Assembly: GCA_043228905.1 (NCBI GenBank)
Contig: JBHGNT010000002.1
Coordinates: forward strand, 17,794,001 to 17,858,000
Reading direction: 5' to 3'
DNA length: 64,000 bases
Source of the DNA: Azolla caroliniana
Taxonomy: Eukaryota; Plantae; Polypodiophyta
Shown: in pieces, positions 16,001 through 54,838 of the stretch
How the letters are laid out: each line of letters opens with the position of its first letter
Numbering within the stretch: the stretch's first letter is position 1
The notes under the pieces: generated by a model
Databases searched by the model: none
What the model saw: only the letters and a program-made list of their open reading frames with translations
What the model was told of the DNA's origin: nothing
Translations under genes and position numbers: made by a program

Positions 16001-16369
16001 CTATCCAACAAAGGAATCCGGCACCAAAAGACCGTTCCATATACCCCCATGCAAAACGGCGTGGCAGAATGGATGAACCAGTGAACCAGACGATCCCAGA
16101 GAGGGTGACGGCAATGCTCCAAAAATCTGGACTAAAGTTGGAATTCTGGGCCGAAGCATTGCAGACAACCTTTCATTTGATCAATCATTCGTTGTCAAGA
16201 TAAATCCGGCTCCAAGTGTCAGAGGCACTATGGTCAGGCAAACAACCGACCTACGATAGGCTCCGTTGTTGTGGTGTGGCGTGTGCAGTGTGAGAAAAAG
16301 CGAGGTTCCACGCACATCTCATTAAATAATGTATAAATAATAATAATAATAATAATAAGTAACTTGTAG

Positions 16370-16425
16370 TAGCTTACTGGTTAAGACTTATGAGTATATG
16401 TAGAGAGGTGTAGAGTTCGAGCCTC
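16370..16425 (+). promoter_or_regulatory. tRNA-like Pol III A/B boxes in LTR A (second copy at ~23874-23930)
   Basis: TAGCTTA(C/G)TGGTTAA ... GAGTTCGAGCC with 45 nt between T8 and G53, as in tRNA genes. Confidence 0.6.
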
Positions 16426-18234
16426 TCTTCTTATAAATCAAAGAGTATTTTGCTCCCATTCCATTTCTGTGATAAACGAAAAAAAAAAAACCCATGTAAT
16501 GTTAAAATAAACTCCTCTTTCCTCTATAAGAGAGGAAGGATAGGGCTTATTTGGGGGTTGCCCATTTTGGCTTAGGGGTGTACCACTAGGGTTTCATCTT
16601 CTTCTCCTCTTCTTCTTGGGTTAGGGTTTGAGAGCTTCTCTCTTTCTCCTCAACATACAAGAGGACTTAGTATTTTAGGGTTTGAGAGATTTTCTTCTAG
16701 TATTCTACTTCTTACTCAAGATAATTTAGGGTTTGGATTTCCTAAACAACGGCTTTTTTGGCATCTCGGTGGTAGTCAACTCGGTGGCCGTTGCGGAAGG
16801 GAGGTTGTAGTGGCACGAGGGCTACTCCGAATCGAGGCAACATAGCCATCGGAAGTAGTTGAGCTCGGAGCCCACTAGACTCGCCTTCGCTAGATTATTC
16901 TAGGCTTTGGTTAATTTATAACCGATTATTGTAATAACCATTGAAATCGTGGTGTCAAGCCTAACAATTGTAAAAAAATTAAAATAGAAACCCTAATCTA
17001 TATAAAAAATTATGTATATTTCCCCATGTCTTTGTCTTAATCTCCCACTTCCTCACTACTTTTGTCTCCCCGATCCATGGTTGTTTACGTACCCATATTT
17101 AACGTTTTAATACGTATAGTACCTCATAATTTGTATAGTACGTACTATACCTCAATGTTGTTTAGTCAAATATCATGTACATTTGTCCAATATGGTATTT
17201 AACGTATTTATAAAACAACAGGTATAATACGTAATTATAAAGAAAATGTACTAAGTAAAACCCCAACAAAAAGCGAAAGAAAAAAAAGAATTTAGTGAAA
17301 AAGAAGCCAAAGGAAGGAAGAAAGAAGAATAGAAGAGACGACGATAAAGAAGAAGAAGAGAGAAAAGAAGACATAAACCTGTCTTGACTCTGAGTGTGAT
17401 AATCACAGAAGATAGAAGAAGAAGACGAAGAAAAGAGAAACCTATCATGAGTGTGATAATCGTAGACGATTCCTCAATCTATGAAGGCATAATTGTAAAT
17501 AATTACAATTTGAAGTAGAAAATCGTGATACACACTTACACTAATTTATAAAATAAGTGAATGTCGACATTCATATTACTACAAGTATTTTGGGATGTGA
17601 AATGTTTAAATGTCTTATATGCATTTTAGGATGTAGAACTATATTGTACATCACAAAATTGTGTAAACATAGATGTTTTTTACAATATTATAGATATTTT
17701 TTAGAAAGGTAAATAATTTTCAAATTCTAGAAGTATTTAACGTTGTCGTGCCTTTCGGCTCCGGATCGTTGCGTGAGTCGGGTAGGAACCGATGGGGTTT
17801 TGGACTAGGAGGAAAGAAAATTCTAGGGCAATTAAGAATATGAAATATATTGTAAGAAAGAAAGATATGAAAAACTCGTGAATCCCATGAGTATAGTGTA
17901 TTAGTGAGTACTCAGATTAAGAGAGAGAAAAATAGTTAGCAAATTCGTGAATCCCACGATTATATTATTAATGCACCCTTGTAAAATAAGCAACAACCTC
18001 TATACATCTTTCTCTCTTCCTTATATAGTGTTGGAAGAGTCTAAGTTTATCACATGCAAGCATCATGCTTTTCCTATCTTTAGTTTTCATGCACACTGCA
18101 TGTGCATGATTAGCTTTCTATCTCATCTTTTCTTTTAACTCGAGTGTCTATGCATGAATAACTTTTTGTACCATGCATGTCTAGAATATTTACATGGGAT
18201 AAAGTTTAGTATAACTTTAAAATTCATAATACGC

Positions 18235-18291
18235 TAGTATAATGATAAAGCTTAACATTATTAACATGGAGGTGCAAGGTTCGAATCTTGC
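18235..18291 (+). promoter_or_regulatory. tRNA-like Pol III A/B boxes in LTR C (antisense to the element)
   Basis: TAGTATAATGA...GAGGTGCAAGGTTCGAATCTTGC, 44-nt spacing. Confidence 0.55.
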
Positions 18292-18642
18292 CCTATGCAT
18301 GTAATATATAATTTTATACTTTCTTCTATTTACAAATATGTCTCTTCATCTGGTGAGAAACTCTCACCGGCCTTCTTCATCCGGCTCTTGCCGGTTCTGC
18401 TTCATCCGGTTCTCGTCGGTTTTCTTTATCCGGTTCTTACCGGATCCTCCTTACCGGTCCTCTTTGTCCGTTTCTCACCGACTCTCACCGGCCTTCTTCC
18501 TTCCGGTTCTCACTGGGTACTCCATATCCTATCCGGAGAAACCAAAAATGTAATTTTTCACGTAGTGTGCGAATTACACTACGACACTCGCCCCCTCCGA
18601 ACCCACACATCCTCCGGTATGTGCCGAAGTCCCCGATGCTTG

Positions 18643-21600
18643 CTATTCACCTTCATCCGATGCTTCCTCCAATTCTCCCCTTAAGTCGACTATGAGTTGT
18701 AATCCACATTCCTCGCTTTCCTCATCACCGCAATCTTCGTCCGATTGCTCATTCTTGTTGGTGGTCTTGTCTAGGATCACATAAGGTTCTTCTTCAGTCC
18801 GCTTCTTGAAAATCTTCACCCGTTTCCCGGCTATAGGACTCGTATCATCGTTCCATCCAACTCGCATAGTCGGTAAGTTCCGTTGTCGAAAGCTTTCCAA
18901 ACCTCGTATGGCCCGAACCACCTTTTCACGAACTTCCGCATCGTTGTATGTTGATGATCCAAACTATTGTCGTAGACAATCACCCAATCTCCTTCTTCAA
19001 TCTTCCGCGGTTGTAGTTGGTGCTTTGTGTCGAACCGGCTTTTATTCCGGAATCGCGCTTCTTGTTGTCGGCGTATTGCTTCCGCTATGTCTTCCGGTCT
19101 TCCCTCTGGTTGTCATATCCGAACCGCTAGTAATTCTTCCCGGCTCATCTCTTCCTTCCACGGTAGCACTGTCCATGTCGCGATTGCAGTTTCCGTTGGC
19201 ATTACCAGTGCTTGTCCAGTCATGAGTTCTGCCGGCATGTAACCGGTTACGGAGCTATGCGTCGTCCGATCCGCCCATAGTGCATACGGAAGCATCTGCG
19301 GCCAATCCTTCACCCTTCCATCGCATGCCTTCGCAAGTGCTTTGACAATCGGACTATGTCCTCGTTCGATCTTCCCGTTGGCTTCCGGATTGTATGCCGT
19401 TGTCAGTGTTAACTGAACTCCATGTTTAGTGAAAAATTCAATAGCTTTATCAGAGTCGAGTTCTCCCCGATCCGCAATCACTTGTCCTACGCACCCGTAC
19501 CTACAAAACACTTCTTCCAAAAGGAATTGGCATATCGTAGAACACGTTTTCCTCCGTAGCGCCCGACCTTCTACTTGGTTTGTGAGATCTTCCCGAGCTA
19601 ACACCAAGTACTTCTTTTGTCCGATCCCGGTTGGCATGGCTACAATATCAACCATCCATTTGAAGTTGATTGTTGGTGAGAATGTCGGATGTAACTCATC
19701 TCGGTGTCGAACTCCGGAGTAGATTTGACACTTCTCGCAGCTTTCCGTGAACTCCGCTATATCTTTGTACATGTTCTTCCACCAATATTTTTGTTTGATT
19801 TTCACAAAAGTTGCCCATGTTCCTCAATGTCCAGCCCAATCGGATTCGTGAAATTCGGACATTATCCGGTTTTGTTGCTCTTTTGTCTCGACTACTCGAA
19901 GTGGTATGCCATCCGGTCTTTTCAGCTCCCTCCATAGTAATCCATTTTTCGTGAAGAACTTTTGGACTTGCCGCTTCTTACTTCGGATCTCGGCTCTCTT
20001 CTCTTTATTGTCCGATGATTCCTCGATTTCTTGTAGCACTTTCCCGATCAACAAGCTTTCTCCCTCGTATTCTTCTTCCCGGAAATCTTGGATTACGTTC
20101 ACCCGACATATGTGCTCCGAAACAAAGTAGTCTTCAGAAACTTCTTCATTATCGGATTCGGTTATGTTATCTCCGAACCGCGCCCTTGATAACATATCCG
20201 CTACCGTGTTGTTTTTTCCGGAGATGTGTTGTACCTCCGGATTAAGTGAGTTAACATATGCAATCCATCTTAGCATAGCCACATGCGGTATCATGCAACA
20301 CCGCATCATCCCGAGTATCGGAAGACAATCCGTTTCGATCACTACTTCGGCTTCGATCAAATAATCTCGATCCGATTTGATTGCCGACACGACTCCCCAT
20401 AATTCTCTTTTAACTTGTGCATATCCGCATTGCCTTTCGTTGAGAACCTTTGCTCCGAATCGGATCGGATATCGCGAACCTTCCGGATTGGCTTGATTGA
20501 TGACCCATTCGATTCCGGTTGGACTTGTGTCAACCGTTACTATGATCGGTTGGTCATACTTCGGCTTCTTTAGTGCTTTTGCCCTCTGTAGTGATTTCTT
20601 GAGCTTCTTCACGGCTTTGGTATGCTCCGGTTTCCATTCAAACTTCTTACCCTTCCGCAACAAGTGATAGAGTGGGTCCGCTATATGTGCATAGTGTGGA
20701 ATCCATATGTGGTAGAATGCACATGCTCCAAGAAACCTTCGAACTTCGGATTGTGACTCGCATACTTCTTTCATAGCTTGAATCGCGTCGATCTTGGTTG
20801 GTGACGGTCTTCGGCCGTAGGGCCCACATAGATGTCTGACTACCAATATTTCTTCTTGCCCGAATGCCGATTTCTCACCGGAAAGTGCTAGGTGCACATC
20901 TTCTAACTTTCGAAGCACTTTCTCGCAATCGTGAATATGGTCGACTACGAACTTTCGGCATCCCCGATCATCCATAGTTTCATCTTTTTCTTCTACCGTG
21001 CATCCTTTCATTGGAATGTCATCTAGGAACGACATCGTTATCTCCGGAATGCAGTCTCGAAGCACCTTGTTCATCGCATTCATCATATGTGCGACCGAGT
21101 TCATCGCACCTTGTGGTAGCGTACACATCCAAACTAATCCTATCGGTGTTCGCATGGTAGTGATGTCTCGGCTTGTTTGGGACAAGAGCTCTCTCTTGTT
21201 CCTTTCATGATTTGCCGGCACCGTTAGGAATTGGACGGATTTCCCTCCGTTTTGGCTCCGAATTCGTGCAAAAGCTGCACTGCTATCGAGCACCTTCGTC
21301 TCCATCCGTGATGCCGTGATAAAGGGTTGCCCGAGGATCACGGAGTGTGAGAACTTGTCTTGTACGAAGAAATTTTGGTCGATCTCGACATCCCCGATCT
21401 TCATCGTCACATCCGGACAAGCCGCAAATAGATCTTCCGTTGCTTTAGTGGCCGCCTGGATCTTCCATCCATGATTGGTGTTAATAGGACACTTCCCCTT
21501 ATGGTAGAACTCTTTGGACATCAAATTGATCTCCGATCCGTGATCAATCAATGCTAGCACGGGCTCTTTGATGTTTTCGATTCGGACCGGAGTCTCTGTA

Positions 21601-23221
21601 GTTGCACGCGCCCAGTGTGGCTTTGTATAGTGGGAATTCAGAATCTCGTCCTCCACTTCGGTGTTGTTCATCAGAATGGTATTTGCATTCACCATCGACG
21701 CATTTTCCTCTGTAGTTTTTCTTTTTCTTTTTACGAGATCCACAAGAAGATCATGGAACTCTTTTTTTGCTATTCCGAGTAGTTCCGAAGCGAAAAATCT
21801 ACCCGGCTGTCAAGGATTCTCTCCTCGAACACCTTTTTCAAGTCCATTTGTTGTTCGATGTCTGAGGCGAGCTTGAATGCCAGAATCGTTTTTCCTTTCC
21901 CTCTTCCATCGGAGTTCTAGCTCTCCGGTGTCTTCGATGGTCCAGCCGCATCCTCCGTGCGTCGCTGCTTCTCGTCCACATATACGTCAAGTAATTGACA
22001 TAGGGCGTATATGCTATTCTTATCGACGGGGCACTCCCATCCTGTAGCTTCCTAGATGCCTTCCATGGTGCTTCGGATCTCGTTAGAGTCGGTTTTCTCG
22101 GTGTTTTCTAGCACTTCCGGCCAAAAAGACACCTTTGCTCCTGATGACTCCCCGACACGTATTCCCACGGTTGTCTCGTAATTGCTCTTCGCCGCTATTT
22201 CCTCCTCTAGGACCTTCTTCATGCCACCTTTTCGGAAGTTCGGTCAGAGCGGCTTCTGAGAGTCCATCGAATGAATCCGATTTCACTCATAGTAGATAAG
22301 ATCCTGTTGTAGCGCTTCCTTGTGCTCGTTGCAATCCCTTCGATCATGTTCGGTGCTATCGCACCATATGCATCGACGGTCCATATACTTGGAACTTGTG
22401 GGACGGTCATCCGACTTCTTCACCATTGCGATTTTTAGATTCTCCATCTCCTTCAGCAACTGCTCCACCGTAGTTGCGTCGATTCCCTTCTCAGTCGTAG
22501 CTTCCCGAGCCCGCGGTTGATGGTCTTCCGATCTGGATCTCGGTTTCGGAATTGGTTCCGAAACCCTCTTTTCTTCATTGGCAAGCCATTGCCCCCTCTT
22601 TGTGTATGGCGCTACGATATCCCACATGTTTTCCCATGTTTCGGTGAGGCCACTTTCGGTAGTCGTGTCCTCTAGAAGCACTCCAAGATCCTTCCGGTCC
22701 TGGACGTCTATGGCTCGTAAGAACATGATAACTTTGTCCGGTGCGAGGATAGATTGATCTCTCGCAGACAACCTCCCGAACCGACTTTCAAATGCCGAAA
22801 ACACATCGAGGACCTTCATCCCCTTGTCCGGCGTTTCTACCCAATCCTCGAATCCTCTCCGCGTTGCCTTGGAGGAGTCCTCGATAGCGAACGTGGTCTT
22901 TAGCGCCTTGTCAAATGCTTCCCACGTTGGATTTTGTTGTCATAGCACGTGGATACTTTCTTGAAGCCCATCGGTAGCTACCCGGTTGAAGGATGTCATT
23001 TGCAGTCCTTCCGAAATCCCGCAGCGTATCATTTCCGCCTTGTAGTCCCGAAGATAGCGCGATACGTCCTTCCCGTTGAATTGCCCGATCCGTTGCACGA
23101 GCCGCTCTACCGCCACCGCTATCTCCGACATCGCACGTTGTTCTTGAAGCATCTGCTCGAACATCATCATCATGTTGTTAGCCTCTGGTTGAGTTTCCAT
23201 CTCCTTGCCACCCGTTTTCAC
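18643..23221 (-). pseudogene. gag-pro-pol of element C, with stops, frameshifts and an RT N-terminal deletion
   Basis: ORFs 22940-23221, 22283-22819 (CIWCDSTEHDRRDC knuckle), 19824-21743 (IDHGSE, FLDD, RNase H) and 19113-19805 (integrase). Confidence 0.9.
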
Positions 23222-24986
23222 GTCGGGTTCACCACTTGTGTCGTACCTTTCGGCTCCAGATCGTTGCGTGAGTCGGGTGGGAACCGTTGAGGTTTTGGAC
23301 TAGGAGGAAAGAAAATTCTAGAGGAATTAAGAATATGAAATATATTGCAACGTACTATACGTAAAATACGTATCTGACGTATTTTAGAAGTATTTAACAT
23401 ATTAAGAAAACGTATTTAACGTATTTTTAAATTGGGAGGTACTATACGCGTATTAATATGTTATATACGTATGGTATTCGTACCGTACCTAACGTCCTTG
23501 CCCTGGTCCAAGGCTCCGGCGGTCCTGTTCGAGTGACACACGCACGCGAAACTTCGCGACATTGGTGAACCCGGCGTGAAAGAGCGATAGGGGAGAACGG
23601 CCACAAACGAAGAAGATTTCGTGGAGATGATGTCGAAGAAGATGGTGGATTTCACGAGGGCAAGGCACAACGAAGAAGAAAAAAACAAAAAAACAAAGCT
23701 TGACAATATTTGGCCTCACCACATCACTTTTCTTTGGCACATGCCGGACGATGTGCGGTTTGGTGGGGGTGGATGTTGTGGTGTGGCGCATGCAGTGTGA
23801 GAAAAAGTGAGGTTCCACGTACATCTCATTAAATAATATATAAATAATAATAATAATAATAAGTAAATTGTAGTAGCTTAGTGGTTAAAACTTATGAGTA
23901 TATGTAGAGAGGTGTAGAGTTTGAGTCTCTCTTCTTACAAATCAAGGAGTATTTTGCTCCCCTTCCATTTCTGTAATAAACGAAAAAAAAAAACATGTAA
24001 TGTTAAAATAAGCTCCTCTTTCCTCTATAACAGAGGAGGGATATGGCTTATTTGGGGGTCGCGCATTTTGGCTTAGGGGTGTACCACTAGGGTTTCATCT
24101 TCTTCTCCTCTTCTTCTTCTTGGGTTAGGGTTTATTAGCCTCCCTTTCTCTTTCATCTCTTCCTTCTTGGGTTAGGGTTTCGTAGCCTCCCTTTCTCTTT
24201 CATCTTTTCCTTCTAGGGTTAGGGTTTGAGAGCTTCTCCCTTTCTCCTCAACATACAAGAGGACTTAGTATTTTAGGGTTTGAGAGATTTTCTTCTAGTA
24301 TTCTACTTCTTACTCAAGATAATTTAAGGTTTGGATTTCCTAAACAACGGCTTTTTCGGCATCTCGGTGGTAGTCAACTCAGTGGCCGTTGCGGAAGGGA
24401 GGTTGTAGTGGCATGAGGGCTACTCCGAATCGAGGCAACATAGCCGTCGGAAGTAGTCGAGCTCGGAGCCCACTAGACTCGCCTTCGCTATATTATTTTA
24501 GCCTTTGGTTGATTTATAACCGATTATTGTAATAACCATTGAAATCGTGGTGTCAAGCCTAACAATTGTAAAAAAATTAAAAATAGAAACCCTAATCTAT
24601 ATAAAAAATTATGTATATTTCCCCATGTCTTAATCTCCCACTTCCTCACTACTTTTGTCTCCCTTGCGGTTCCGTTCGAGCGACACGCACGCGAAACTTC
24701 GCGACACCGTACTTTCGGATGCAAAGCCTATGCCTTCATAGCAAGAGAGAAAAGGACCAAGCTAGTGCCCCATCCGACAAAGTGCATATTTCTCGGTTAT
24801 GGATTCGATGGAGAATTTGACTATTGGCTATGGGATCCGGAAAGTCGGAAGCTAATTCGAAGTAGTGACGTAGTCTTCAATGAAGACTACATGTTGGGAA
24901 CTGGAGCCGCCAGTGTGGAAACATAAACAACACCTGGAGATGAAGATCACCGAGTTATCATGTGTAAGCAAGATACACCAGAGGAT

Positions 24987-24988
<2 letters not shown>

Positions 24989-25044
<56 letters not shown>
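24989..25044. repeat. (GA)28 microsatellite
   Basis: Directly visible. Confidence 0.97.
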
Positions 25045-25047
<3 letters not shown>

Positions 25048-43900: not shown

Positions 43901-44268
43901 TCGTTCGCCTCGACCTCCAATCATGCCGACTTAGCCTTCACCCGGATCGGTCTCGGCTGATCGAGTTCCGGTTTGGTCGGCTCCCTTCCGTAATCGTAAC
44001 CAGCCGGTACATGTTTGTCCGAACAAATCCGGCCTTGCCGACTCTTCTTCGGTTCGGGCCCGGTTAACTGGACCCCGCTCCAATCTTCTTCAGCGTCGTC
44101 TTCCGGTCGTGTCGGATTATCGACCGGTTCATCTTCCGGTCGGGTCGGTTCCCAACTCTCTCCTCTTTGCCGCTCCCGACCTCTCCATCGGTCCTCTTGT
44201 ATATGCCTATTTCGGGCCTCGCATCCTCATCATCGTACGTGTTCGCTCCAAGCCACGCCTCCTCACGG

Positions 44269-44928
44269 TGTCGGGGTTGCTACGCCCTAGCGTGCAGAAA
44301 GGAGGAGGGACCACGGGGGTCTTGGACCGAAGAGCAAGAGAGAGAGAGGAGAAGGAGAGACCCGATTACACAGAACCCAAGATTGCACAGGGACACGGCC
44401 CAACAAACAGAGATCACAAATAAACGCCGACACAGATGGACGCAACCACGGAAGATATGTACTTATGAATGCAAGAAAATAACAGCTAAAGTGTTACAAC
44501 CCACGGTGGGGCACTAAATAGATAATAACGAAAACGAACAGGGCGGCGAACAGATGCCGACCCCTGTATGTCGCGACGCACGGAAAGGGGGGAAACAGGT
44601 CGGAGGTGCTGCAGGACGCACTCGGGCGTTCCACGGAACAGCGCAAGCCTCCTCGAAACCTGCACAGGTACGCGATGGAGCAGAAGACAGAGAGAGCAGG
44701 AGCTTCGAATCGGTTCCGCAGCACTTCGTCCTCTCCGCGCGAGATGTCTTTTCCTATTCTTCCTCTTCCTTTTTATATCCCGTCAAGAGGCCGTTTGGCA
44801 TTAACTGCATACCAACCGAATCTACCCACCTAGGATCCTTGTATGTACTTCTTGGCGCGCGTGTGTGTAGAGCCGTTTCCCTCGCCTTGTTCCTCCGATT
44901 CCTCTTGTGGGCGGTTTTCTTCACGACA
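44269..44928 (-). repeat. 3' LTR of F
   Basis: TG..CA ends; adjacent PPT GGTGGGGGCCGT on the minus strand. Confidence 0.95.
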
Positions 44929-45000
44929 ACGGCCCCCACCTAACCGCGCATCCACCGGCATGCGCCAAATTAAGTTGGCACGGAGAAAACCGGCCCGTCT

Positions 45001-48000
45001 TTACTCTTCGCCTGCTGGCCCTTCCTCGGCCTCGGATCGGTCGTCGCTGCTGTCCAGGAGAATCGGGTCGGGTTCGTCGTCGTGCCGCTTCTTGAAAGCT
45101 TTGATCCTCTTCCCGGCCACGGGTATCGCTATTCTCGTACCGTCGAGTTCCGCCAGATGATACGTCCCGTTGTCGTTGGCGCTCTGTACCGTGTACGGCC
45201 CGAACCATCTCTGTGCGAACTTCCGCGTTGCTCGGTGCTGGTTGTCGAGGCTGCTGTCGTAGACGAGCACCCAGTCACCTTCGTCGATTTTCTTCGGTCG
45301 TAGCCGGTGCGTTCGGTCGAACCGGGCTTTGTTCTTTGTCCTCGCCACCCGGAGCTTCTCCGTAGCCAGTGCCACGTCCTCCGGTCTCCGCTCGAGCTGT
45401 CGTATACGCGCGGCCAACAACTCCTCCCGGCTCATCTCGTCCCTCCAGTCGACCGTTGCCCACGAGGAGACCGTCCGTTCAATCGGCATGATCGGCTTCT
45501 GGCCGAACATGAGCTCTGTCGGCATGTACCCGGTTACCGAACTGTGCGTGGTCCGGTCTGCCCACAAAGCATAAGGTAGGAGCCGCGGCCAGTCACCGAT
45601 TCGGCCTCCGCATGCCCGAACTAACGCCTTGACGATCGGTCCGTGTCCGCGCTCCACCTTCCCATTCGCCTCCGGATTGTACGCAGTGGTGAGCGAGAGC
45701 TTGACCCCCAGCCGGTCGAACAGCTCCGCGGCTTCCTCGGCGTCCAACTCCCCTCGGTCAGCCACGATCTTCCCGACGCACCCGTACCGGCATATCACGT
45801 CCTCGATCAGGAACCGACACACGGCCGCGGTCGTCTTGTTCTGAAGGGCTCGGCCTTCCACCTGGTTCGTCAGGTCTTCCCGTGCTAGGACCAGATACCG
45901 CATCTGTCCTACCCCCATCGGCATCGTCACCAGATCTACCATCCATTTGAAGTGGATAGTCGGAGGGTACGTAGGGTGAAGCCCGTCCCGGTGTCGGACT
46001 ATCGAGTGCATCTGACAACTCTCGCAAGTTGACACGAACCGATGCACGTCCCGGTACAATCCCGACCACCAGTACTTCCCCTTCAGCTTCTCAAATGTCG
46101 CCCACGTTCCACGGTGTCCAGCCCAAGGGCTGTCGTGGTAGGCCGCCAGTAGCTCCTCCTGTTCTTCCTTCATCGCCACCACCCGGAGCGGGACGCTGTT
46201 CCTCTTCTTCGGGTGCTTCCACAAATGCCCATCTCGGAGAAAGAATCGATATGCTTTCTTCCGGATCCGGTTGGCCTCGTCCTTCGTCCATGACGCATCG
46301 GGCGTCATTGTCTTCAAAAACCCGCCGATCTGCAGCCACTCCCCGTCGTACTTGCTCGCGTCGAACTCGTTAAGCGCCGGAGTGCTCATCCCGTCGGTTG
46401 TTATGTATGCCGCCTCGAAGAAATCCACGCCGACCTCTTCGTCTTCCGAAACCATGCCGCCCTCGTCGTCGAACCTCGCCCTCGAAAGCATGTCGGCCAT
46501 GGCGTTGTCTTTCCCGGAAATGTGTCGTATTTCCGGGTCCAGGGACTTGATGTACGCTATCCACCTGAGCATCGCCAGGTCCGGAGTCGCGCATCCGGAG
46601 ACCATACCGAGAATCGGCAGGCAATCCGTCTCGATGATCACTTCTGTCCCTATCAGGTAGTCTTTGTCGGCCTTAACCGCCGAAACAATACCCCAGAGTT
46701 CGCGTTTAACCTGGGCGTATCCTCGCTGCCGTTCACTGAGGACTTTCGCGCCGAATCGGATCGGAAACCGATTGCCGTCCTCGTCTTCCTGGCTCACGAC
46801 CCATCCGATCCCGGTCGGACTGGTATCCACCGTTATGAATACCGGGGTACCCTTCCCGTATACCGCCTTCCGGAGTGCCGGTGCCGCTGCAAGGGCCTCT
46901 TTCAGCCTCCGGACCGATTCCGCGTGCTCGTCTAGCCATTCGAACCTTCGCCCCCTTTTCAGCAACCCGTACAGTGGCTCCGCGACGTGTGCGTAATGCG
47001 GGATCCATATGTGGTAGAACGCGCATGCCCCCAGGAATCTCCGTACTTCCGTGACCGAGCTGCAGTCGGGCTTCATCGCGGAGATGGCTTCTACCTTTGC
47101 CGGAGACGGTTTCCGGCCATATGGTCCGCACAGGTGTCCGACCACCATGATTTCTGACTGCCCGAAGGCCGACTTCTCTCCGGAGAAGGTGAGTCTCGCA
47201 TCCTCTAGCCTTTGCAGCACCTTCTCGCAGTCGTCGATGTGCGTCGCCACGAATCGCCGGCATCCGTCCGGCCCGATCGTCTCGTCCCTTTCTTCCACCG
47301 GGCATCCCTTGATCGGGATGTCGTCCAGAAACGGCATGGTGATGTCCGGGATACAGTCCCTCAGAACCTTGTTCATCGCATTCACCATGTGGGCCACCGA
47401 GTTGGTCCCTCCTTGCGGCAGTGTACACATCCGAACTAGGCCGAGGGGAGTTCGCATCGTCGTAATGTCTCTGCTCTCCACGGCTAGCTGGAACTGGTCG
47501 TACCCTGAGTATAGATCCCCGACCGAGTAAATTGACCTTCCGGCGAAGGCCTCCGCGAACTCGTCTATGGTCGGTCCGATCCCTGCGTTCCGAATCGTCA
47601 CTCGATTGACCGGCTGCAGGTCCTGGATGAAGCGCAACGAACCGTTTTTCTTCGGTACGGTAAACCATCGATTCGAATATGGGGCGCTCGACGGCTCGAG
47701 AATTCCCATATCAACTTTCTGCCTCAGCAGCTCCATCAACTTCGGGATGTGAGCTCTCGGAACCGGGATTGGCTTGAGATTCCATGGTACATGCGGTACC
47801 GTGAATATCACCATCGGCTCCACGATCGTCGGGTCAACGCACCCGATTTCCTCCGGCGAGAATGCGAAGGCTTTCCCGTGCCTTCCGAGCATTCTCCGAA
47901 ACCGGTCTTCCTCCGCCGGCAGTAGGAACCCGCCCCCACCGATTTTGAGCTCTCGGAGCGTCTCGTCGGTAAAGGTGTGTCCTATGCAGGCCGGATCTCG

Positions 48001-48492
48001 TAGACTAGGGTCCGATGCAACCCCTTTGATTCTCGACGCGCTGTCCTCCGGTAAGGGTGCCGCGACTGGCCTTACCTTCCGGTCCACAGTCTTGTACTTG
48101 GTGCTCACGTGGGCCGTCCGAACTGACTCGAGCCCTCGACCGAAGCCCGCGATGACTTCGTACATCTCCTCGGAACACACCGGTATCGTCCGGTCTTCGT
48201 CAAGGCCTTCCTCGACTACCCTTCCCAGCATTCCCAAGGTGTCGTCGAATGAGACCGCCTCCACGGCCCCGTTGATTTCCTCGTCAGGGCCGAGAACTCC
48301 GCACGCTCGAAGTCTCCCCTCCGCCTTTCTCTTCTCTCGGCCGCCGATGCCGACTGTCGTGCACGCTCCGCTGTCGGAGAACAAAAATTCCCTACCTATG
48401 GTACAAGGTTTCTTCGGTTTTATCGTACAGGTGTGGGGTTTTCCCGGGGTGTCCGGACTGTCGCGGCCCCACGCCTTGGCAGTCCTCTCTAA
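45001..48492 (-). CDS. pol: Pol (RT, RNase H, integrase) of F, probably reached by -1 frameshift
   Basis: Frame open from 48492 to the stop at 45001. RT DLYSGY/LPQG/FLDD; RNase H VDTS..KRELWG..ETDC; IN HHCC, DRGE, NGKVER, WFGPY; no chromodomain. Confidence 0.95.
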   Translation of the reverse strand, partial: LERTAKAWGRDSPDTPGKPHTCTIKPKKPCTIGREFLFSDSGACTTVGIGGREKRKAEGRLRACGVLGPDEEINGAVEAVSFDDTLGMLGRVVEEGLDEDRTIPVCSEEMYEVIAGFGRGLESVRTAHVSTKYKTVDRKVRPVAAPLPEDSASRIKGVASDPSLRDPACIGHTFTDETLRELKIGGGGFLLPAEEDRFRRMLGRHGKAFAFSPEEIGCVDPTIVEPMVIFTVPHVPWNLKPIPVPRAHIPKLMELLRQKVDMGILEPSSAPYSNRWFTVPKKNGSLRFIQDLQPVNRVTIRNAGIGPTIDEFAEAFAGRSIYSVGDLYSGYDQFQLAVESRDITTMRTPLGLVRMCTLPQGGTNSVAHMVNAMNKVLRDCIPDITMPFLDDIPIKGCPVEERDETIGPDGCRRFVATHIDDCEKVLQRLEDARLTFSGEKSAFGQSEIMVVGHLCGPYGRKPSPAKVEAISAMKPDCSSVTEVRRFLGACAFYHIWIPHYAHVAEPLYGLLKRGRRFEWLDEHAESVRRLKEALAAAPALRKAVYGKGTPVFITVDTSPTGIGWVVSQEDEDGNRFPIRFGAKVLSERQRGYAQVKRELWGIVSAVKADKDYLIGTEVIIETDCLPILGMVSGCATPDLAMLRWIAYIKSLDPEIRHISGKDNAMADMLSRARFDDEGGMVSEDEEVGVDFFEAAYITTDGMSTPALNEFDASKYDGEWLQIGGFLKTMTPDASWTKDEANRIRKKAYRFFLRDGHLWKHPKKRNSVPLRVVAMKEEQEELLAAYHDSPWAGHRGTWATFEKLKGKYWWSGLYRDVHRFVSTCESCQMHSIVRHRDGLHPTYPPTIHFKWMVDLVTMPMGVGQMRYLVLAREDLTNQVEGRALQNKTTAAVCRFLIEDVICRYGCVGKIVADRGELDAEEAAELFDRLGVKLSLTTAYNPEANGKVERGHGPIVKALVRACGGRIGDWPRLLPYALWADRTTHSSVTGYMPTELMFGQKPIMPIERTVSSWATVDWRDEMSREELLAARIRQLERRPEDVALATEKLRVARTKNKARFDRTHRLRPKKIDEGDWVLVYDSSLDNQHRATRKFAQRWFGPYTVQSANDNGTYHLAELDGTRIAIPVAGKRIKAFKKRHDDEPDPILLDSSDDRSEAEEGPAGEE

Positions 48493-48498
48493 AAATCC
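48433..48498 (-). promoter_or_regulatory. Predicted -1 ribosomal frameshift signal (G_GAU_UUU plus pseudoknot)
   Basis: Heptamer 48498-48492 immediately before the gag UAG; 6-nt spacer; stems GGACUG/CAGUCC and GUGGGG/CCCCAC. Confidence 0.8.
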
Positions 48499-50642
48499 TC
48501 TCGGTTTTCGGAACCGAGGGAATCACGGTTACGTTCGTGGTTCGGCCTTACCGTCAAAAACTGGACCGAATGGCGCCCGTCTTGGCTTTTGACCCTCGCG
48601 TAGGCCGAACCATTGTCCAGCACTTTGGTCTCCATCCGCGCCGCCGTAATGTACGGTTCTCCCAGAATGACCGGGTGCGAAGACGTCTCCTGCACGAAGA
48701 AGTGTTGGTCAATCTCGACGTCGCCAATCTTGACCCGCACATTCGGACAGGCCCCGTGCAGTTCCTCGGTGGCGCGCGTTGCTGCCCTTATTTTCCACCC
48801 GTGCTTGGTGTTGATCGGCCATTTGCCCTTCTTATAGAAGTCCATGGACATCAAATTGATCTCCGATCCGTGGTCCACCAAAGCTATCACCGGTTCCTGG
48901 ACATCGCCGATCTTCACCGGGGTTTCCGTGGTCGCTCGGGCCCAGTGTGGTCTCGAATAGTGGCTTTCCGCCCACTCGTCTCCCAGCGCCATGTCATCTA
49001 GGTGCGTCGTCCGCACTTCCACCGGTCTTTCCGGTCCTGTCTCCGTCGACAGCCTCTTCCGTTTCACCAAGTCCACGATGGAGTCGTGGAACTCCTTCTT
49101 GGCGATTCCCAGCACCTCCCGTAACGACAGCTCCACCTTGCTGTCGAGGATCCGTTCCTCCAGGACCTTTCGTAAGTCCGTGGTTCTTTCTATCTCCGTC
49201 CCCAGACGGTACCCGCCCTTCTGGGGTTTATCTCGCGTACCGGCCCCGCCGGCTTCGTCCCGTCGCGGCCCGGACCGGGTCTCGTATCGTTGTGAGGGCC
49301 CGGTCGTCCCGGGTTTCCCCACCCGCTTCTCTTCTACCAGAGCCTCGTAGTTCCGGCAAGCGGCTTCCACGAAGCCCGTCTTCTCCTCGACCGGGTCGCT
49401 CCACCCGGTCCTCTCCCGTACCCGTTTCTCCGCACGGTCCGATTCCTCCCTTTTAAGCCCTGCACCGGCAAGGCCTCCCAGCATCGTCGGCCAGAATCCG
49501 GCTTCGCTTTCCCTTCGGGCCTCGCCGCCCCCGACTCGAATGCCGGCTGACGCCGAGTAGTGGACGGTTTCCGCGTGTCGGGCCGCCGCCTCTTCCATCA
49601 CCCTTTTCATACCGCCCTTTCCGTCGTTTCGGCTCAGGGCCCTTCGGGTGTCGCTGGCATGCACCCGTCCTTCCCACAGGTACACCACCCTGTTCCTCAG
49701 CGCCTCCGCGAAGTCGCCGCAGTCCTTCCGAATGTGGCCGACTTCATCGCACCACATGCACCTGTTTCCTGCCGCCGGCCGTCGGTCACGAGCCGGTTCG
49801 CCTCCTTCCCTTCGGGCCTGCGCGATTTGGAGGTCCTTTATCGCCTTTGTCAATTCCTCCAGCGCCGCTCCTCCGGTTGAGCCTCTGACTACGCCGGTCG
49901 AAGCCGAACCGGTCTCCAACCACTCTCGGGTCTCTTCCTTTCGCACCTGTGGCGCTGGATCGAGCTTCCTTGCTGCGACCGAGCCCGACCCGGTTGCACC
50001 GTTATCCGCCCATTCTCGCCGTTTGTCGAAACGGCCACAGACCTTCCTGACAGCCGCCCAGTCCGTAGTGAGCCCGTCTTCGGTTTCCAGCAAGAAGCCC
50101 ACTTGCTCCCGATCCCGCTCGTCGACCGTCTTGACAAACAGCAAGACCCGGCTCGTGTCCAGGATGGTTCGGTCAAGCGCCGAAAGGCGCGCAAAGTTTT
50201 CCTCGAACTCCCGGAGGAGCGCCGACGCGTTTCTTCCCTTCCCCGGGGACTCCACCCATTCCATGAACCTTCGCTTCGAAAGCCGGAGCGCGTCGTCCAG
50301 TCCGTATTTCTCTAGGAGCCGACCTTCGAACTCCTCCCAGGTACGGCTCTCCATCCGCACCTCGAGCACCTCCGCGTGGATGCTCGGCATCGCCACTCGG
50401 GGAAATCCGGCAAGACGCCTTTCTTCCGGAATGTCCCGCATCAGCATCTCTGCACCGTAGGACGCCAAATACTTCGTGGCATCCTTCCCATCGAACCGGC
50501 CGATCGTGCCGACGACCGCCTCAATAGCTCTGTCGAGGGCACCGGTGCTCTCGCGCGCGTTTACAATCCGATCCACGGCCGAAGCCATGGCCTCTGCGAG
50601 ATCCGACCCTCTCATTTCCTGCTCTTCTGCCGCCTCTTTCAC
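48489..50642 (-). CDS. gag: Gag-protease polyprotein of F
   Basis: 717-aa ORF with zinc knuckle CMWCDEVGHIRKDC and aspartic protease ALVDHGSEINLM...VILGEPY. Confidence 0.93.
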   Translation of the reverse strand: MKEAAEEQEMRGSDLAEAMASAVDRIVNARESTGALDRAIEAVVGTIGRFDGKDATKYLASYGAEMLMRDIPEERRLAGFPRVAMPSIHAEVLEVRMESRTWEEFEGRLLEKYGLDDALRLSKRRFMEWVESPGKGRNASALLREFEENFARLSALDRTILDTSRVLLFVKTVDERDREQVGFLLETEDGLTTDWAAVRKVCGRFDKRREWADNGATGSGSVAARKLDPAPQVRKEETREWLETGSASTGVVRGSTGGAALEELTKAIKDLQIAQARREGGEPARDRRPAAGNRCMWCDEVGHIRKDCGDFAEALRNRVVYLWEGRVHASDTRRALSRNDGKGGMKRVMEEAAARHAETVHYSASAGIRVGGGEARRESEAGFWPTMLGGLAGAGLKREESDRAEKRVRERTGWSDPVEEKTGFVEAACRNYEALVEEKRVGKPGTTGPSQRYETRSGPRRDEAGGAGTRDKPQKGGYRLGTEIERTTDLRKVLEERILDSKVELSLREVLGIAKKEFHDSIVDLVKRKRLSTETGPERPVEVRTTHLDDMALGDEWAESHYSRPHWARATTETPVKIGDVQEPVIALVDHGSEINLMSMDFYKKGKWPINTKHGWKIRAATRATEELHGACPNVRVKIGDVEIDQHFFVQETSSHPVILGEPYITAARMETKVLDNGSAYARVKSQDGRHSVQFLTVRPNHERNRDSLGSENREDF

Positions 50643-50655
50643 GTCGGGTTCACCA
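50639..50655 (-). promoter_or_regulatory. Primer binding site complementary to the tRNA-Trp 3' end
   Basis: TGGTGAACCCGACGTGA is the reverse complement of UCACGUCGGGUUCACCA (plant tRNA-Trp 3' end, from recollection). Same PBS in A-F, with one mismatch in A. Confidence 0.85.
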
Positions 50656-50658
50656 AGA

Positions 50659-51318
50659 TGTCGGGGTTGCTACGCCCTAGCGTGCAGAAAGGAGGAGGGA
50701 CCACGGGGGTCTTGGACCGAAGAGCAAGAGAGAGAGAGGAGAAGGAGAGACCCGATTACACAGAACCCAAGATTGCACAGGGACACGGCCCAACAAACAG
50801 AGATCACAAATAAACGCCGACACAGATGGACGCAACCACGGAAGATATGTACTTATGAATGCAAGAAAATAACAGCTAAAGTGTTACAACCCACGGTGGG
50901 GCACTAAATAGATAATAACGAAAACGAACAGGGCGGCGAACAGATGCCGACCCCTGTATGTCGCGATGCACGGAAAGGGGGGAAACAGGTCGGAGGTGCT
51001 GCAGGACGCACTCGGGCGTTCCACGGAACAGCGCAAGCCTCCTCGAAACCTGCACAGGTACGCGATGGAGCAGAAGACAGAGAGAGCAGGAGCTTCGAAT
51101 CGGTTCCGCAGCACTTCGTCCTCTCCGCGCGAGATGTCTTTTCCTATTCTTCCTCTTCCTTTTTATATCCCGTCAAGAGGCCGTTTGGCATTAACTGCAT
51201 ACCAACCGAATCTACCCACCTAGGATCCTTGTATGTACTTCTTGGCGCGCGTGTGTGTAGAGCCGTTTCCCTCGCCTTGTTCCTCCGATTCCTCTTGTGG
51301 GCGGTTTTCTTCACGACA
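50659..51318 (-). repeat. 5' LTR of F
   Basis: Direct repeat of 44269-44928; PBS lies 3 nt downstream. Confidence 0.95.
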
Positions 51319-54300
51319 ACGGCCACCGCCCTTCTCTCCGGTCTTATGTTGGCATTTGAGCGCAACCGCCATAGTCTCTGGTCTCAGTGTCGAGGGGTCT
51401 CTCCTCTGTCCGCTATGACCTTCCTCGTTGTCGTTTCGATCGTCCGCTTTGCCACCGCCACCTTCCGTCTCTCTGGTCTCACGTGGGCTCTTGGGGCCGA
51501 CCGCTGAAGCCTCTAGGACTGGTGTGGGTAAGATCCCGGCATCGCCGCTCATTATGTCCGTAGCCACCTCCATTCGGACATCGTGGTCCGTGGCTATCTC
51601 GTCCCCGGTTACGCAAGCCTCGATTATGCTTGCTACCTCCTCATCCTCATCGTCGTCTCGGTTGCCCGCCTTGCCGTCGCCACCGCCCGTCGCTCTAGGA
51701 CTCATGCCGGCACTCGGGCCAACCGCCGAAGCCTCTAGGACCGGCGTGGGTAAGGACCCAGCACCACCACTCGTTGTGTCCGTAGCCACCTCTATCCGGA
51801 CGTCGTTGTCCGCAGCTACCCCGTCTCCGATCGCGGAAGCCTCGATTACGCTTGCCGCCTCCTCTTCCTTGATCTCCTTGCCGTCGTCTTGGTTGCCCGC
51901 CTTCCCGCCGCCATCGTTCATCACTCTAGGTCTCACATCAGCTCTCAGGCCGGATGCCAGAGTCTCTAGAATCGGTGTGGGTAAGGTTCTGGCACCACCA
52001 CTCGTCTCCTCCCCGCTCGATGTTTTGGGCCATCGTGTCCCGAAACCTCCGCCCACTCTTGAAGTGGTGCTCCCCGCTTTGTAGTCACCGGCCTCGTCCA
52101 TGGCCGTCCCTTTTCCGCAAGACGAGAGGGTCGCTTGCCCTGCACCCTCTCCCATGTCATCGCCGTTGCACGCTCTTCCAGCCTCTGTATAGGCCCCGTC
52201 GTCCACGCATAGGGAGGCTTCTTCCTCCGCATCCTCAGATCGACTCCGGCCCGATTCCATAATAAGCCTTTCTTTAGCTTCGAACTTCACCTTCACGCTC
52301 TCGCACGCCTCCCATACCAACGCCTCTAGGTCGTACTCCTCCGGTTGATCGCGCGTCGAGCTCTCTTCCGATGGTAGTGCGTAGCCGCTCACCGCCCTCT
52401 CTTCTCCGCCGCTCATGGGCCATGTTGTTGCCGACCGCTCCCCATAGGGTTGTCAGCATACCCACTCCGGTTCCGCGTATCCGTACGCTTCCAATAGGGC
52501 TCCCTCAAAGGACTCCCACGACTCGTGAGCTTCTCGTAGCTCCTTGACCTCCTTGTGCACCGATACGGCCGCCACTCGAGGAAAATACTCTAGCTGCATC
52601 GCCTCGTTCACGCCCCCTTTCGCCATCTCGGCCTTGTAGGCTCCCAAACATTTTGGGACCTCATTCCCATTGAACCAACCGACCCGATCGACCACCCTTT
52701 CAACGGTTTGTTGAGCCGTATCTCGCTTCGCCATCTTCCGTCCAACTTCCATCACGATCTTTGCCATCATCTCCTCGAAGTCGAAGTCTTCTTCCATCTC
52801 CATGCTCCCTTTCGGCCTTTCACGTCGGGTTCACCAAAGATGTTGCATTGTTATGCGCGTGCTTGTAGAAGGGGCGGGACCACGGGGGTCTCGGACTAGG
52901 GAGTAGAGGAGAAAGAATAAGACACAAAATGGAAGCTTAGTTCAAGAGGAGATGAGAAAGAATAAAACAATAACATAGAATAGACGGCGGCAAGATACTC
53001 AAGAAGTTAATTTAAGGAAACATAAATGCTTTACAATGGTGGCCGCCATGGCCGCACCAAACGACTATGACAAAACCCTAACCGAAGATGAATAAGGAAA
53101 ACCCTAAACGAAACCCTAACCCTAAAATGGTAAGAGCTCTAGACTAAGTGGTATACCCTTCATACGCAAAATAGGCAACCCTTCATAAGTGACCCCTCCC
53201 TTCATTTTATAGCCCAAGGAGGGAGGAACCTTACAATGTGGGACAAAATTTCCCCTCTTATTTCTATACACCATTTCCTAGTACACGTGTGCACATGTTG
53301 CACACCACCGACTTGCCCTTTCCACCCCGGTTTCCGCCTATGGACAAAAATCTTCACGACAACATTATCTCCCAATTTTGGAGTTTGCTTATAACAACTC
53401 CAAGCATACGTCGACGGGATATAGTCCTTTTATGTTGATGTATGGTTTTCAGCCACGAGCCCCGATTGATGTTAATATACATCATGATGAGTTGCGAAGT
53501 ACGCAAAACTTTCTTTGGGATATGCAAGATATGTTGCATATTGCACGAGATAATATAAAAACAGCTCAAGATAGAGCGTGTTTTTATGCTGACCATCATA
53601 GGCAACCTCGTGTATTCAACCCTGGACAGAAGTTATTTTTACGTGCACCTCACAATTCTAAGACATTGTCTACGGGTAAGTGCGCTAAGTTAGCCCCACG
53701 GTTTTGTGGATGTTTTACAGTCCTCAAACGCTTGGGTCATCAACCTATCGTCTCGCTCTTCCCAATGGTGTTGGAACTCATCCAGTCTTCCATGTGAGTC
53801 GTCTAAAAGAACTTCTAGGTTCTGGCGACAACACAATTACAACTGAAACTCTGGTTACTTCTGAAGATTTATCTTCGAAACCACATGTACATGTACCAGA
53901 AAGAATTCTCGATGTTAAAACAAAAAAATTACGTACTAAAGAAATCTGAGAATTTAAAATAAAATGGATGGATAAATCAATAAAAGATGCCACATGGGAA
54001 CGCGAAAATACTCTCAGAACTAACTTCCCTAACTTTCCATTGCAAGAGTGCAAGGTTTTAAAGAGGGGAAGTATGTTATGGGCATGACCATATAATATCC
54101 CGTGGTGAGAATTTACCGTAGTATTCTATACACGTGGATAAGTGTGAGGGTTAAATGAGAGTGTAAAGAACGAGAGGATTACTTTTAATCCTCAGGATTG
54201 AGACAACCCATTAGGCCAAGTGTGAACTTGCCTAGGGGCCTTGGGTATCGCTATAAATAAGAGGCCTAGCTACCCTCATTTGATCATCTTGTTGACTACG

Positions 54301-54838
54301 TCGAGACTCTGTCTTGTGGTGGGTCAACTCTTGTAGCAAGCGCGCCAGCACCAGGTACAACTCGACGCCACGACAATGGTATGGGATGCCGATCGAGGCT
54401 CGAGTCCGTCTCCTCCCTTCTATCATTAGTTTATCCTTATCTTAAGCTTACTTTAGTACCTAGATCTCTAATAGGTTGCCTATTTTGCGTATGAAAGGTA
54501 TACCACTTAGTCTAGAGTTCTTACCGTTTTTGGGTTATGGTTTCGTTTAGGGTTTCCTTATTCATCCTCGGTTAGGGTTTCTCATAGTCGTTTGGTGCAG
54601 CCCATGCGGCCACCATTGTTGTAATCATTTGTTTGTTTTAATATATCTTGTTGAGTATCTTACCTTTGCCGATCTCTCCTTCTATGTCATGATCTTATTC
54701 TTTCTTCTTCTCCTCTTGAGCTAAGCTTCCAAAACATATCTTATTCTTTCTCCTCTACTCCTTAGTCCGAGACCCCCGTGGTCCCGCCCCTTCTACACGC
54801 ACGTGCGTAACAACACGACAACGCGCATCTTCGCGACA

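What the first reader, a model, noticed from the sequence alone, without database searches (positions are those of the whole stretch)
16267..54838. Helper/parasite retroelement system: autonomous, Gag-only and TRIM-like partners sharing cis signals
Seen: six elements with mostly divergent LTRs share the same 17-nt tRNA-Trp PBS, a gag start just after the PBS, a ~40-nt pre-PPT motif, a U5 motif GTCCRAGACCCCSGTGGTC and 4-bp target sites. F and C encode Gag-Pro-Pol. B, D and E encode only a modified Gag. A keeps ~210 bp of internal sequence. A, D and E have paired LTRs and TSDs, so they were mobilised as units. Inference: these are non-autonomous tiers mobilised by F-type Pol, and what they retain maps the minimal cis requirements. 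TRIMs and TR-GAG elements are known, but I am not aware of this set being described for a Phygy/Selgy-like lineage.
Basis: partly seen in the sequence, partly recalled or inferred. Interest (0 to 1): 0.85.

Follow-up and report, generated by a model that had tools for sequence, protein, structure and literature searches.

The report
Gag-only hitchhikers of Phygy-like retrotransposons
In what is likely a seed-free plant, several repeated jumping-gene families lack their own copying enzymes, keeping either a capsid protein with a long tail predicted to be unstructured or almost nothing, and they likely borrow the enzymes of complete relatives, a known kind of partnership seen here in a little-studied lineage.

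Summary
Six nested Ty3/gypsy elements are present, with a shared PBS, a pre-PPT hairpin and mostly NCGN 4-bp target sites.

Corrections: the U5 motif is in B, D, E and F, degenerate in A and absent in C. C is dead (first 345 Pol residues lost). B's LTRs do not pair.

The Pol-less forms are families, not one-off deletions. D and E are collinear across the gag-to-tail junction. Contigs from four studies cover all Pol-less interiors with many variants. Metagenomes hold four complete Pol-less units and one A-type unit.

Intact relatives carry one 620–1,060-codon ORF: capsid (dN/dS 0.16–0.31), no zinc knuckle, and a tail predicted to be disordered. Their capsids form an old clade that is not derived from F. 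Four relatives carry 5′ ends from different autonomous families.

The PBS and 4-bp NCGN site match published Phygy traits, so sharing them does not single out F as helper. Borrowing of Pol is inferred, not shown.

It works like wheat Cereba/Quinta, TR-GAGs and TRIMs. Verdict: new variant of a known kind.

The parts
16267..23561 (+). A 5' LTR (16267-17070 plus ~23500-23561), split by an AT-rich insert that itself holds C
   Evidence: 96% to A 3' LTR; contig joints from 24660/24662 to 23501-23505 show the family LTR runs into the U5-like end
23563..23773 (+). A interior, 211 bp: PBS (1 mismatch), about 30-codon gag remnant related to B, pre-PPT hairpin, G-rich PPT
   Evidence: 84% to L099 over 208 bp; 8-33 variant contigs per listed site in runs X1, X4, X5
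23774..24706 (+). A 3' LTR, 933 bp, U5 motif deleted; TSD CCGT at 16263-16266 and 24707-24710
17071..23497 (.). AT-rich insert with imperfect inverted ends (17071-17743 and 23350-~23497), unclassified, repeated; not part of the system
17744..23349 (-). C: decayed copy of a second autonomous family; 5' LTR 111 bp, 3' LTR 843 bp (18586-17744), PBS 23234, Pol lacks residues 1-345, 7 stops; TSD ACGT
   Evidence: relative L066 has about 1 kb more at the deletion
29620..33253 (+). B: 5' LTR 29620-30244, PBS 30250, Pol-less interior 2378 bp (capsid plus tail, broken), 3' LTR from 32628, interrupted by D
   Evidence: LTRs only 80% alike
54825..54838 (+). last 14 nt of B's 3' LTR, beyond D's right TSD
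33254..38595 (+). D: 5' LTR 33254-33814, PBS 33819, Pol-less interior 4541 bp, first part of 3' LTR from 38360
54474..54820 (+). rest of D's 3' LTR; TSD ATGC (33250-33253) / ACGC (54821-54824)
38596..54473 (+). unrelated LTR element (5-bp TSD GGTTG, different PBS at 39055, decayed Pol fragments) that hosts E; not part of the system
51319..53361 (-). E 5' part: LTR 53361-52841, PBS 52836, capsid N-terminal domain only, start of tail
   Evidence: same C-terminal-domain deletion in P0123
41413..44268 (-). E 3' part: rest of tail, hairpin, PPT, 3' LTR 41924-41413; TSD ATGT/ATGT
44269..51318 (-). F: intact-looking autonomous element, 7050 bp; LTRs 660 bp (99.8%), PBS 50655, Gag-Pro 50669-48489 (capsid, CCHC knuckle, protease), Pol 48522-45001 (RT, RNase H, integrase); TSD CCGT
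23736..23759 (+). pre-PPT hairpin GCACAT-(8-nt loop with CCGG)-ATGTGC in A; equivalents near 32589(+), 38322(+), 41962(-), 44966(-), 18625(-)

Best explanation
A, B, D and E belong to repeated Pol-less families of a Phygy-like Ty3/gypsy lineage, and they are likely copied and inserted by the reverse transcriptase and integrase of complete relatives, probably of several families rather than of F alone.

Steps. (1) Shown: intact relatives of B/D/E carry one long ORF from PBS to PPT, made of capsid (whole or one domain), no zinc knuckle, protease or Pol, and a long charged, repetitive tail. (2) Shown by tree: their capsids form one old clade that is not a deletion product of F. (3) Inferred: their RNA would be packaged in particles built by complete elements, primed at the shared PBS and G-rich PPT, and integrated by a helper integrase, which would explain the 4-bp NCGN sites. 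(4) Inferred: template switching inside shared particles would explain relatives whose 5' end comes from an autonomous family and whose 3' part is the tail cassette. (5) Inferred: the capsid-tail protein is made and likely co-assembles with helper Gag, since the capsid part is under purifying selection. (6) Inferred: A likely arose by internal deletion from a B-like element and keeps only PBS, leader, hairpin and PPT. The hairpin is a candidate packaging or dimerisation signal, untested.
For: D and E, separate insertions with LTRs 85% alike, are collinear for about 2 kb across the gag-to-tail junction, so Pol loss predates both.

In 4 of 4 laid runs from 4 studies the interiors are deeply covered with many variant contigs. 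Run X1 summed depth: A interior 2,185-3,382; B 11.5-12.9k, flat over gag and tail; D tail 14-47k; E tail 10-17k; F Pol 409-440k; single listed contigs 21-68. A contig of another study spans A's PBS and most of its interior (X5 record 18, 23528-23731, 22 differences).

Of 118 distinct PBS sites in 120 metagenome loci, 8 reach their own pre-PPT motif: 3 autonomous (5.6-5.7 kb), 4 Pol-less (1.9-3.1 kb), 1 A-type (170 nt). Three of the 4 Pol-less units have one stop-free ORF of 1064, 663 and 634 codons; 0 of 1000 Markov controls reach the lengths measured between PBS and PPT. 8 of 9 close capsid relatives run into the tail, and 0 of 13 tail-clade proteins have a zinc knuckle or match F beyond the capsid.

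Capsid dN/dS is 0.16-0.31 in four well-aligned Pol-less pairs against 0.12-0.17 in autonomous pairs. The tail clade has support 100/100 and a stem of 0.68. The model of P0126 matches dArc/Arc capsid (Z 9.7, rmsd 7.9 over 151 residues; N-lobe Z 8.7, rmsd 1.9 over 69) with a low-confidence tail. Mosaics: L038, L002, L042, L013. Hairpin: 97.9% of cells paired, 3 of 6 pairs with two-sided changes.
Against: No RNA, particle or eccDNA data: no RNA holder was listed, so expression and co-packaging are untested. No genome was held, and summed contig depth is not a copy number by the tool's own warning.

The window copies of B, D, E are broken, and B is not a TSD-bounded unit. Family members lack either capsid domain (E and P0123; P0121, L013, L038, L051), which fits poorly with a strict capsid role. 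D versus E capsid dN/dS is 0.51 with an interval of 0.2-1.99, and one gappy pair gave 0.41 (0.17-0.79). Tail dN/dS is 0.44-0.71, and the simple method used can read below 1 under neutrality.

The mosaics come from short-read metagenome contigs and could be misassemblies. Most metagenome loci come from one series of accessions, so they are not independent samples of diversity. Hairpin folding z-scores are weak in 5 of 6, and related sequences can beat the shuffles without structure.
Confidence: 0.75

Rival explanations
1. Dedicated pair: the F family (or its superclade) is the one helper, as Cereba is for Quinta, and the U5 motif is the recognition signal.
For: Among autonomous loci the U5 motif was found only in the F superclade and its neighbour L065. 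The last 75 nt of U5 in A, B, D, E are nearest to F-superclade elements at 73-79%. F-like Pol is the deepest-covered Pol measured and F is young. A tail+F capsid clade is not rejected (p-AU 0.46).
Against: Apart from U5, D/E and F LTRs share no local match. Mosaics join the tail to C-type and L031/L033-type 5' ends, which lack the motif. 73-79% over 75 nt is near the level seen between autonomous families.
Confidence: 0.3
2. The capsid-tail protein is an inhibitor of helper particles (like Ty1 p22) or is used by the host, and selection on it is not about moving the element.
For: Loss of the RNA-binding knuckle; one-domain capsid variants; a bulky tail predicted to be disordered. Ty1 p22 precedent seen only as search listings and abstract starts (PMC4599808, PMC10951436). 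Pol-less interiors are 10-40 times less covered than F Pol.
Against: The ORF sits in mobile, repeated, TSD-bounded elements with decayed copies, not at one fixed locus. An element that blocks its helper would limit its own spread. This rival is compatible with trans-mobilisation and only changes the protein's role.
Confidence: 0.12
3. An unsampled autonomous family with the same capsid and tail plus pol exists, and B/D/E are its recurrent deletion products.
For: No genome was available. The protein search was word-based and limited to 266-847 aa. The metagenome scan read 28 of 64 parts, and 40 of 120 loci had only 300-bp flanks.
Against: No tail-clade sequence examined has knuckle, protease or Pol. 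The ORF runs from PBS to PPT in several complete units. Depth is flat across B.
Confidence: 0.08
4. Each short structure is a single-copy deletion that happened after insertion.
For: Likely true for C (RT deletion, short 5' LTR) and for the U5 loss in A's 3' LTR.
Against: Shared junctions in D/E, E/P0123 and A/L099; many variant contigs in four studies; the tail has no match in 120 Pol-region proteins, so deletion alone cannot make it.
Confidence: 0.02

Closest known systems
RLG_Cereba / RLG_Quinta of wheat (PMC11302176; abstract and section 5 read)
   Same: [quoted passage not shown]
   Different: Quinta shares the 3' half of the LTR with one identified helper. Here LTRs are unrelated apart from a U5 motif, several helpers are possible, the knuckle is missing, capsid domains are lost in subfamilies, and no centromere link was tested.
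TR-GAG elements (PMC4350172; passages read)
   Same: LTRs, PBS, PPT, one gag ORF, no pol, repeated.
   Different: Described from angiosperms as under 4 kb with 5-bp TSD, and TR-GAG1 keeps a zinc finger. D and E are about 5.7 and 4.9 kb, TSDs are 4 bp, and the ORF is mostly tail.
TRIMs (PMC4717578; passages read)
   Same: Non-coding short interior with PBS and PPT, 4-6-bp TSD, origin by internal deletion.
   Different: TRIMs are given as under 1 kb, mostly with LTRs under 250 bp; A is about 2.0 kb with 0.9-kb LTRs. That survey found none in Physcomitrella. A seems to derive from a Gag-only element.
Phygy lineage (Neumann et al. 2019, PMC6317226; passages and supplementary file 3 read)
   Same: 4-bp NCGN TSD, tRNA-Trp PBS (match recalled), no chromodomain or extra RNase H found, coding region fills the interior.
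   Different: Defined from Physcomitrella at 7.7-10.0 kb; F is 7.05 kb. Only elements with polyprotein regions were kept in that survey, so it describes no Pol-less partners. Placement against REXdb sequences was not testable.
Non-autonomous LTR families of sugar beet (PMC13570524; passages and section 37 read)
   Same: Continuum of sizes, 28 GAG/PROT-only families, chimeras between families, proposed generalist mobilisation.
   Different: Angiosperm; no Phygy-type set in the passages read.

Membership tests
Phygy (non-chromovirus Ty3/gypsy) | RT-RH-INT phylogeny groups with REXdb Phygy | not testable with these tools
   No REXdb sequences held. Named relatives are Riccia proteins at up to 68% over the full RT-RH region, unnamed ones up to 86%.
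Phygy (non-chromovirus Ty3/gypsy) | 4-bp TSD with NCGN preference | tested here: met
   A, C, F exact NCGN; D NCGN on one side; E ATGT. Loose-end majority beside C-type LTR ends finishes in ACGT in 4 of 4 runs.
Phygy (non-chromovirus Ty3/gypsy) | tRNA-Trp PBS | tested here: inconclusive
   The match to eukaryotic tRNA-Trp is recalled. No tRNA gene was found to confirm it.
Phygy (non-chromovirus Ty3/gypsy) | No chromodomain, no additional RNase H, no extra ORF; coding region spans nearly the whole interior | tested here: met
   Pfam at E<0.01 gives only RT, RT-RNase H and integrase families for F Pol; ORFs cover 50669-45001. The extra RNase H would mark TatI, which also has 4-bp TSD and tRNA-Trp.
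Phygy (non-chromovirus Ty3/gypsy) | Size 7.7-10.0 kb (descriptive; the paper calls size of little weight for classification) | tested here: not met
   F is 7050 bp. Filed as Phygy-like, not as a proven member.
Selgy | tRNA-Ala PBS, 4.4-6.7 kb | tested here: not met
   F is 7.05 kb; the PBS is recalled as Trp-type; the NCGN preference is given for Phygy only.
TR-GAG | LTRs, PBS, PPT and a single gag ORF without pol | tested here: met
   Intact relatives L013, L038, L051, P0142; window copies are broken.
TR-GAG | Under 4 kb and 5-bp TSD | tested here: not met
   B about 3.6 kb fits; D about 5.7 kb and E about 4.9 kb do not; TSDs are 4 bp. TR-GAG-like, not filed as members.
TR-GAG | Transcription | not testable with these tools
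   No RNA holder listed.
TRIM | No coding capacity, PBS, PPT, 4-6-bp TSD, repeated | tested here: met
   A.
TRIM | Under 1 kb with short terminal repeats | tested here: not met
   A is about 2.0 kb with 0.9-kb LTRs. TRIM-like only.
Cereba/Quinta-type autonomous/non-autonomous pair | Same PBS and LTR termini | tested here: met
   PBS exact in 5 of 6; termini TGT...ACA with small variants.
Cereba/Quinta-type autonomous/non-autonomous pair | Second half of the LTR strongly conserved with one unique partner | tested here: not met
   Only 24-52-nt U5 matches between F and B/D/E; several autonomous families share the PBS.

The most novel reading that the evidence does not exclude
The tail is a transferable parasite cassette. 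Recombination in shared particles grafts it onto the 5' end of any autonomous Phygy-type family, replacing the zinc knuckle and all enzymes. The resulting capsid-tail protein co-assembles with helper Gag and, with the conserved CCGG-loop hairpin before the PPT acting as a 3' kissing-loop, steers packaging towards parasite RNA. A-type elements are second-level parasites on this system.
Probability: 0.15. Interest if true: 0.75.

Novelty: new variant of a known kind. Interest (0 to 1): 0.48.

Why it matters
Helper/parasite pairs among plant LTR retrotransposons are mostly inferred and rarely tested. This set gives a natural deletion series in one lineage: a young, intact-looking element (F), Gag-only families with whole or half capsids, and a 211-bp interior. 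It names a short list of candidate cis signals (PBS, leader, U5 motif, a covarying 3' hairpin) that can be tested directly. It also shows a conserved, unannotated 620-1,060-residue capsid-tail protein family in seed-free plants, and it extends a lineage defined from one moss. If the tail cassette really moves between helper families, it would be evidence for generalist rather than one-to-one mobilisation.

Tried and rejected
No genome held, so no copy census. No RNA holder listed; this is no evidence either way.

Viral-contig scans for the pre-PPT motif and the PBS gave 0. Attempts to confirm the tRNA identity failed: ARAGORN on 8 loci and Rfam on 6 loci found only an unrelated tRNA-Phe; a genome-contig scan gave 37 prokaryote matches, 0 of 37 tRNAs; the PBS string is in 0 papers.

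Pfam gave nothing for the B, D, E ORFs. Foldseek gave no match at E<=0.001 for either model; dArc capsids were at or near the top. The ESM Atlas gave retrotransposon-gag clusters at 0.90-0.91, a lead only. The all-representatives search with the L051 ORF gave 356 hits without names.

Rejected: 'Gag-only clade is sister to C'. It was 100/98 but fell to 56/64 once the mosaic L002 and partial or redundant rows were removed (24 of 52 rows dropped). Rejected: C as a working helper. Rejected: B as a single insertion. U5 and PBS regions showed no folding beyond shuffles.

Literature searches for a prior description of this set found none: Phygy+Selgy, 14 papers; TR-GAG, 15; moss/RLG1, 16; LTR swapping/co-packaging, 11; fern+Phygy+LTR, 3; non-autonomous+Gag+bryophyte+fern, 4. 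Most were seen as listings only. Passages of PMC12885004, PMC7466625 and PMC12924346 held nothing on such partners. Repbase, Dfam and genome-paper TE libraries were not available, so the families may already be catalogued under other names.


Full report
SETTING. The window is a pile of plant retrotransposons at 45% GC. No genome is held. F Pol matches Riccia proteins at up to 68% over the full RT-RH region and unnamed metagenome proteins at up to 86%, so the host is likely a seed-free land plant. Earlier AI notes on this genome say fern (unchecked).

ANATOMY. Six elements share the PBS. A (16267-24706, TSD CCGT) has 96%-identical LTRs and a 211-bp interior; its 5' LTR is split by an AT-rich insert that holds C. 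C (23349-17744, minus, TSD ACGT) lacks Pol residues 1-345 and has 7 stops. B (29620-54838) has LTRs only 80% alike and unmatched flanks; D sits 14 nt from its right end. D (33254-54820) has its 3' LTR split by an unrelated LTR element, which holds E (53361-41413, minus), which holds F (51318-44269, minus). F has open Gag-Pro and Pol frames and LTRs 99.8% alike. The U5 motif is present in B, D, E, F, degenerate in A and absent in C.

LINEAGE. Neumann et al. 2019 give Phygy as 4-bp NCGN TSD (100%), tRNA-Trp PBS (81%), no extra domain, 7.7-10.0 kb. The target sites here fit, against an NCGN background of 4.8%, and Pfam shows no chromodomain or extra RNase H in F. The tRNA-Trp match is recalled, and placement against REXdb could not be run. 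The PBS and target site are therefore lineage traits; they show that a Phygy-type Pol could act on all six, not that F does.

ARE THE SHORT FORMS FAMILIES? Yes, on four lines. (1) D and E are separate insertions yet collinear for about 2 kb across the gag-to-tail junction, and B shares tail segments with both. (2) Contigs of four runs from four studies cover every Pol-less interior with many variants. In X1 the summed depth is 2,185-3,382 on A's interior, 11.5-12.9k on B, 14-47k on D's tail, 10-17k on E's tail and 409-440k on F Pol, against 21-68 for single listed contigs. The tool warns that this is no copy number, so I read it only as tens, hundreds and thousands. X1 may be the source sample; X4, X5 and X6 show the same order. 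(3) A PBS scan of metagenomes gave 120 loci and 118 distinct sites. Eight reach their own pre-PPT motif: 3 autonomous, 4 Pol-less and 1 A-type. L099 matches A's interior at 84% with A-type LTR on both sides. (4) E's deletion of the capsid C-terminal domain recurs in P0123.

WHAT THE GAG-ONLY ELEMENTS ENCODE. The window copies are broken, but three of the four complete Pol-less relatives carry a single ORF from PBS to PPT (1064, 663, 634 codons); the fourth has one stop. None of 1000 Markov controls reaches the lengths measured. P0142 (673 aa) and P0143 (624 aa) have both capsid domains and the whole B-type tail. Of 9 close capsid relatives, 8 run into the tail; none of 13 tail-clade proteins has a zinc knuckle or matches F beyond the capsid. 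AlphaFold gives P0126 the same helix pattern as F Gag over about 210 residues, then one helix and a low-confidence tail. The fold matches dArc/Arc capsid (Z 9.7, rmsd 7.9 over 151 residues), modest for a helical protein but in line with the sequence evidence. Capsid dN/dS is 0.16-0.31 in four pairs, 0.41 and 0.51 with wide intervals in two, and 0.12-0.17 in autonomous pairs; the tail gives 0.44-0.71. The capsid is thus constrained and the tail weakly so at best. Subfamilies that lack either capsid domain argue against a strict capsid role.

ORIGIN AND PARTNERS. The B/D/E capsids form one clade (100/100, stem 0.68 changes per site) whose sister is unresolved once mosaics and partial rows are removed (the apparent link to C did not hold). 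They are 36% identical to F, so they are not F deletions. Four metagenome elements are mosaics: L038 has an L031-family leader (86%), L002 a C-type 5' end, L042 an L033/L031-type capsid before a B-type tail, and the Pol-less unit in L013 has a U5 97% like the autonomous element on the same contig. Template switching in shared particles would explain these, and would mean several helper families. Misassembly is the alternative. The U5 motif, found among autonomous loci only in the F superclade and its neighbour, keeps a preferential link to F open. A's interior is the 5' 100 nt and 3' 60 nt of a B-like interior, so A likely derives from the Gag-only clade.

THE PRE-PPT MOTIF. It is a 6-bp stem with an 8-nt loop that usually holds CCGG. 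Across 16 distinct sequences 97.9% of cells pair and 3 of 6 pairs change on both sides; 1-2 of 500 shuffles reach these values, and slid controls fall to 1-66% paired. The sequences are related and the structure came from them, so this is suggestive only. A self-complementary loop suggests a dimerisation or packaging signal; that is inference.

COMPARISON. It works like wheat Cereba/Quinta, where the partner encodes Gag plus an unknown domain, like TR-GAGs and TRIMs, and fits the continuum described in beet. It fails the size or TSD criteria of TR-GAG and TRIM and the shared-LTR criterion of Cereba/Quinta, so I file the parts as TR-GAG-like and TRIM-like partners of a Phygy-like lineage. Six searches found no description of this set, but repeat databases were not available.

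VERDICT. Non-autonomous families are well supported. Mobilisation by helper Pol is inferred (0.75), and the identity of the helper is open. New variant of a known kind; interest 0.48.

Noticed in passing
   Followed up: partly
window 17071-17743 and 23350-~23497: AT-rich insert with imperfect inverted ends and very high contig depth; likely a non-autonomous DNA element, unclassified.
   Followed up: partly
window 38596-54473 and 56782-58193(-): Unrelated LTR element with 5-bp TSD, LTRs ending in TA rather than CA, decayed gypsy Pol fragments and an SH3_Tf2-1 hit; very deeply covered.
   Followed up: no
window 41732-42307(-); L013, L051, L042, P0142, P0143: The tail ORF ends in a conserved Trp/Arg-rich motif (RRIWWIGW-like); the neighbouring frame of the same DNA in E reads as a Gly/Ser-rich stretch. 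Which frame is selected is unknown.
   Followed up: partly
L048, L106, L029: PBS followed by a very divergent gag start; L048 and L029 also match D's tail. Probably further Pol-less families.
   Followed up: no
L002:3021-6431 and 6345-8366: A 1137-codon antisense ORF and a 674-codon ORF with a zinc-knuckle-like motif follow the truncated element; probably other transposons.
   Followed up: no
window 51319-51330: F's insertion site in E resembles F's own PPT over about 12 nt; may be chance.
   Followed up: no
window 2151-8807, 59313-59768, 61198-63573: Copia-like remnants and a LINE-like element (read from the ORF translations, names recalled).
   Followed up: no
window 25696-29616: Inverted and direct repeats (26385-26918 palindromic; 28958-29549 tandem 300 bp) between A and B.
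   Followed up: no
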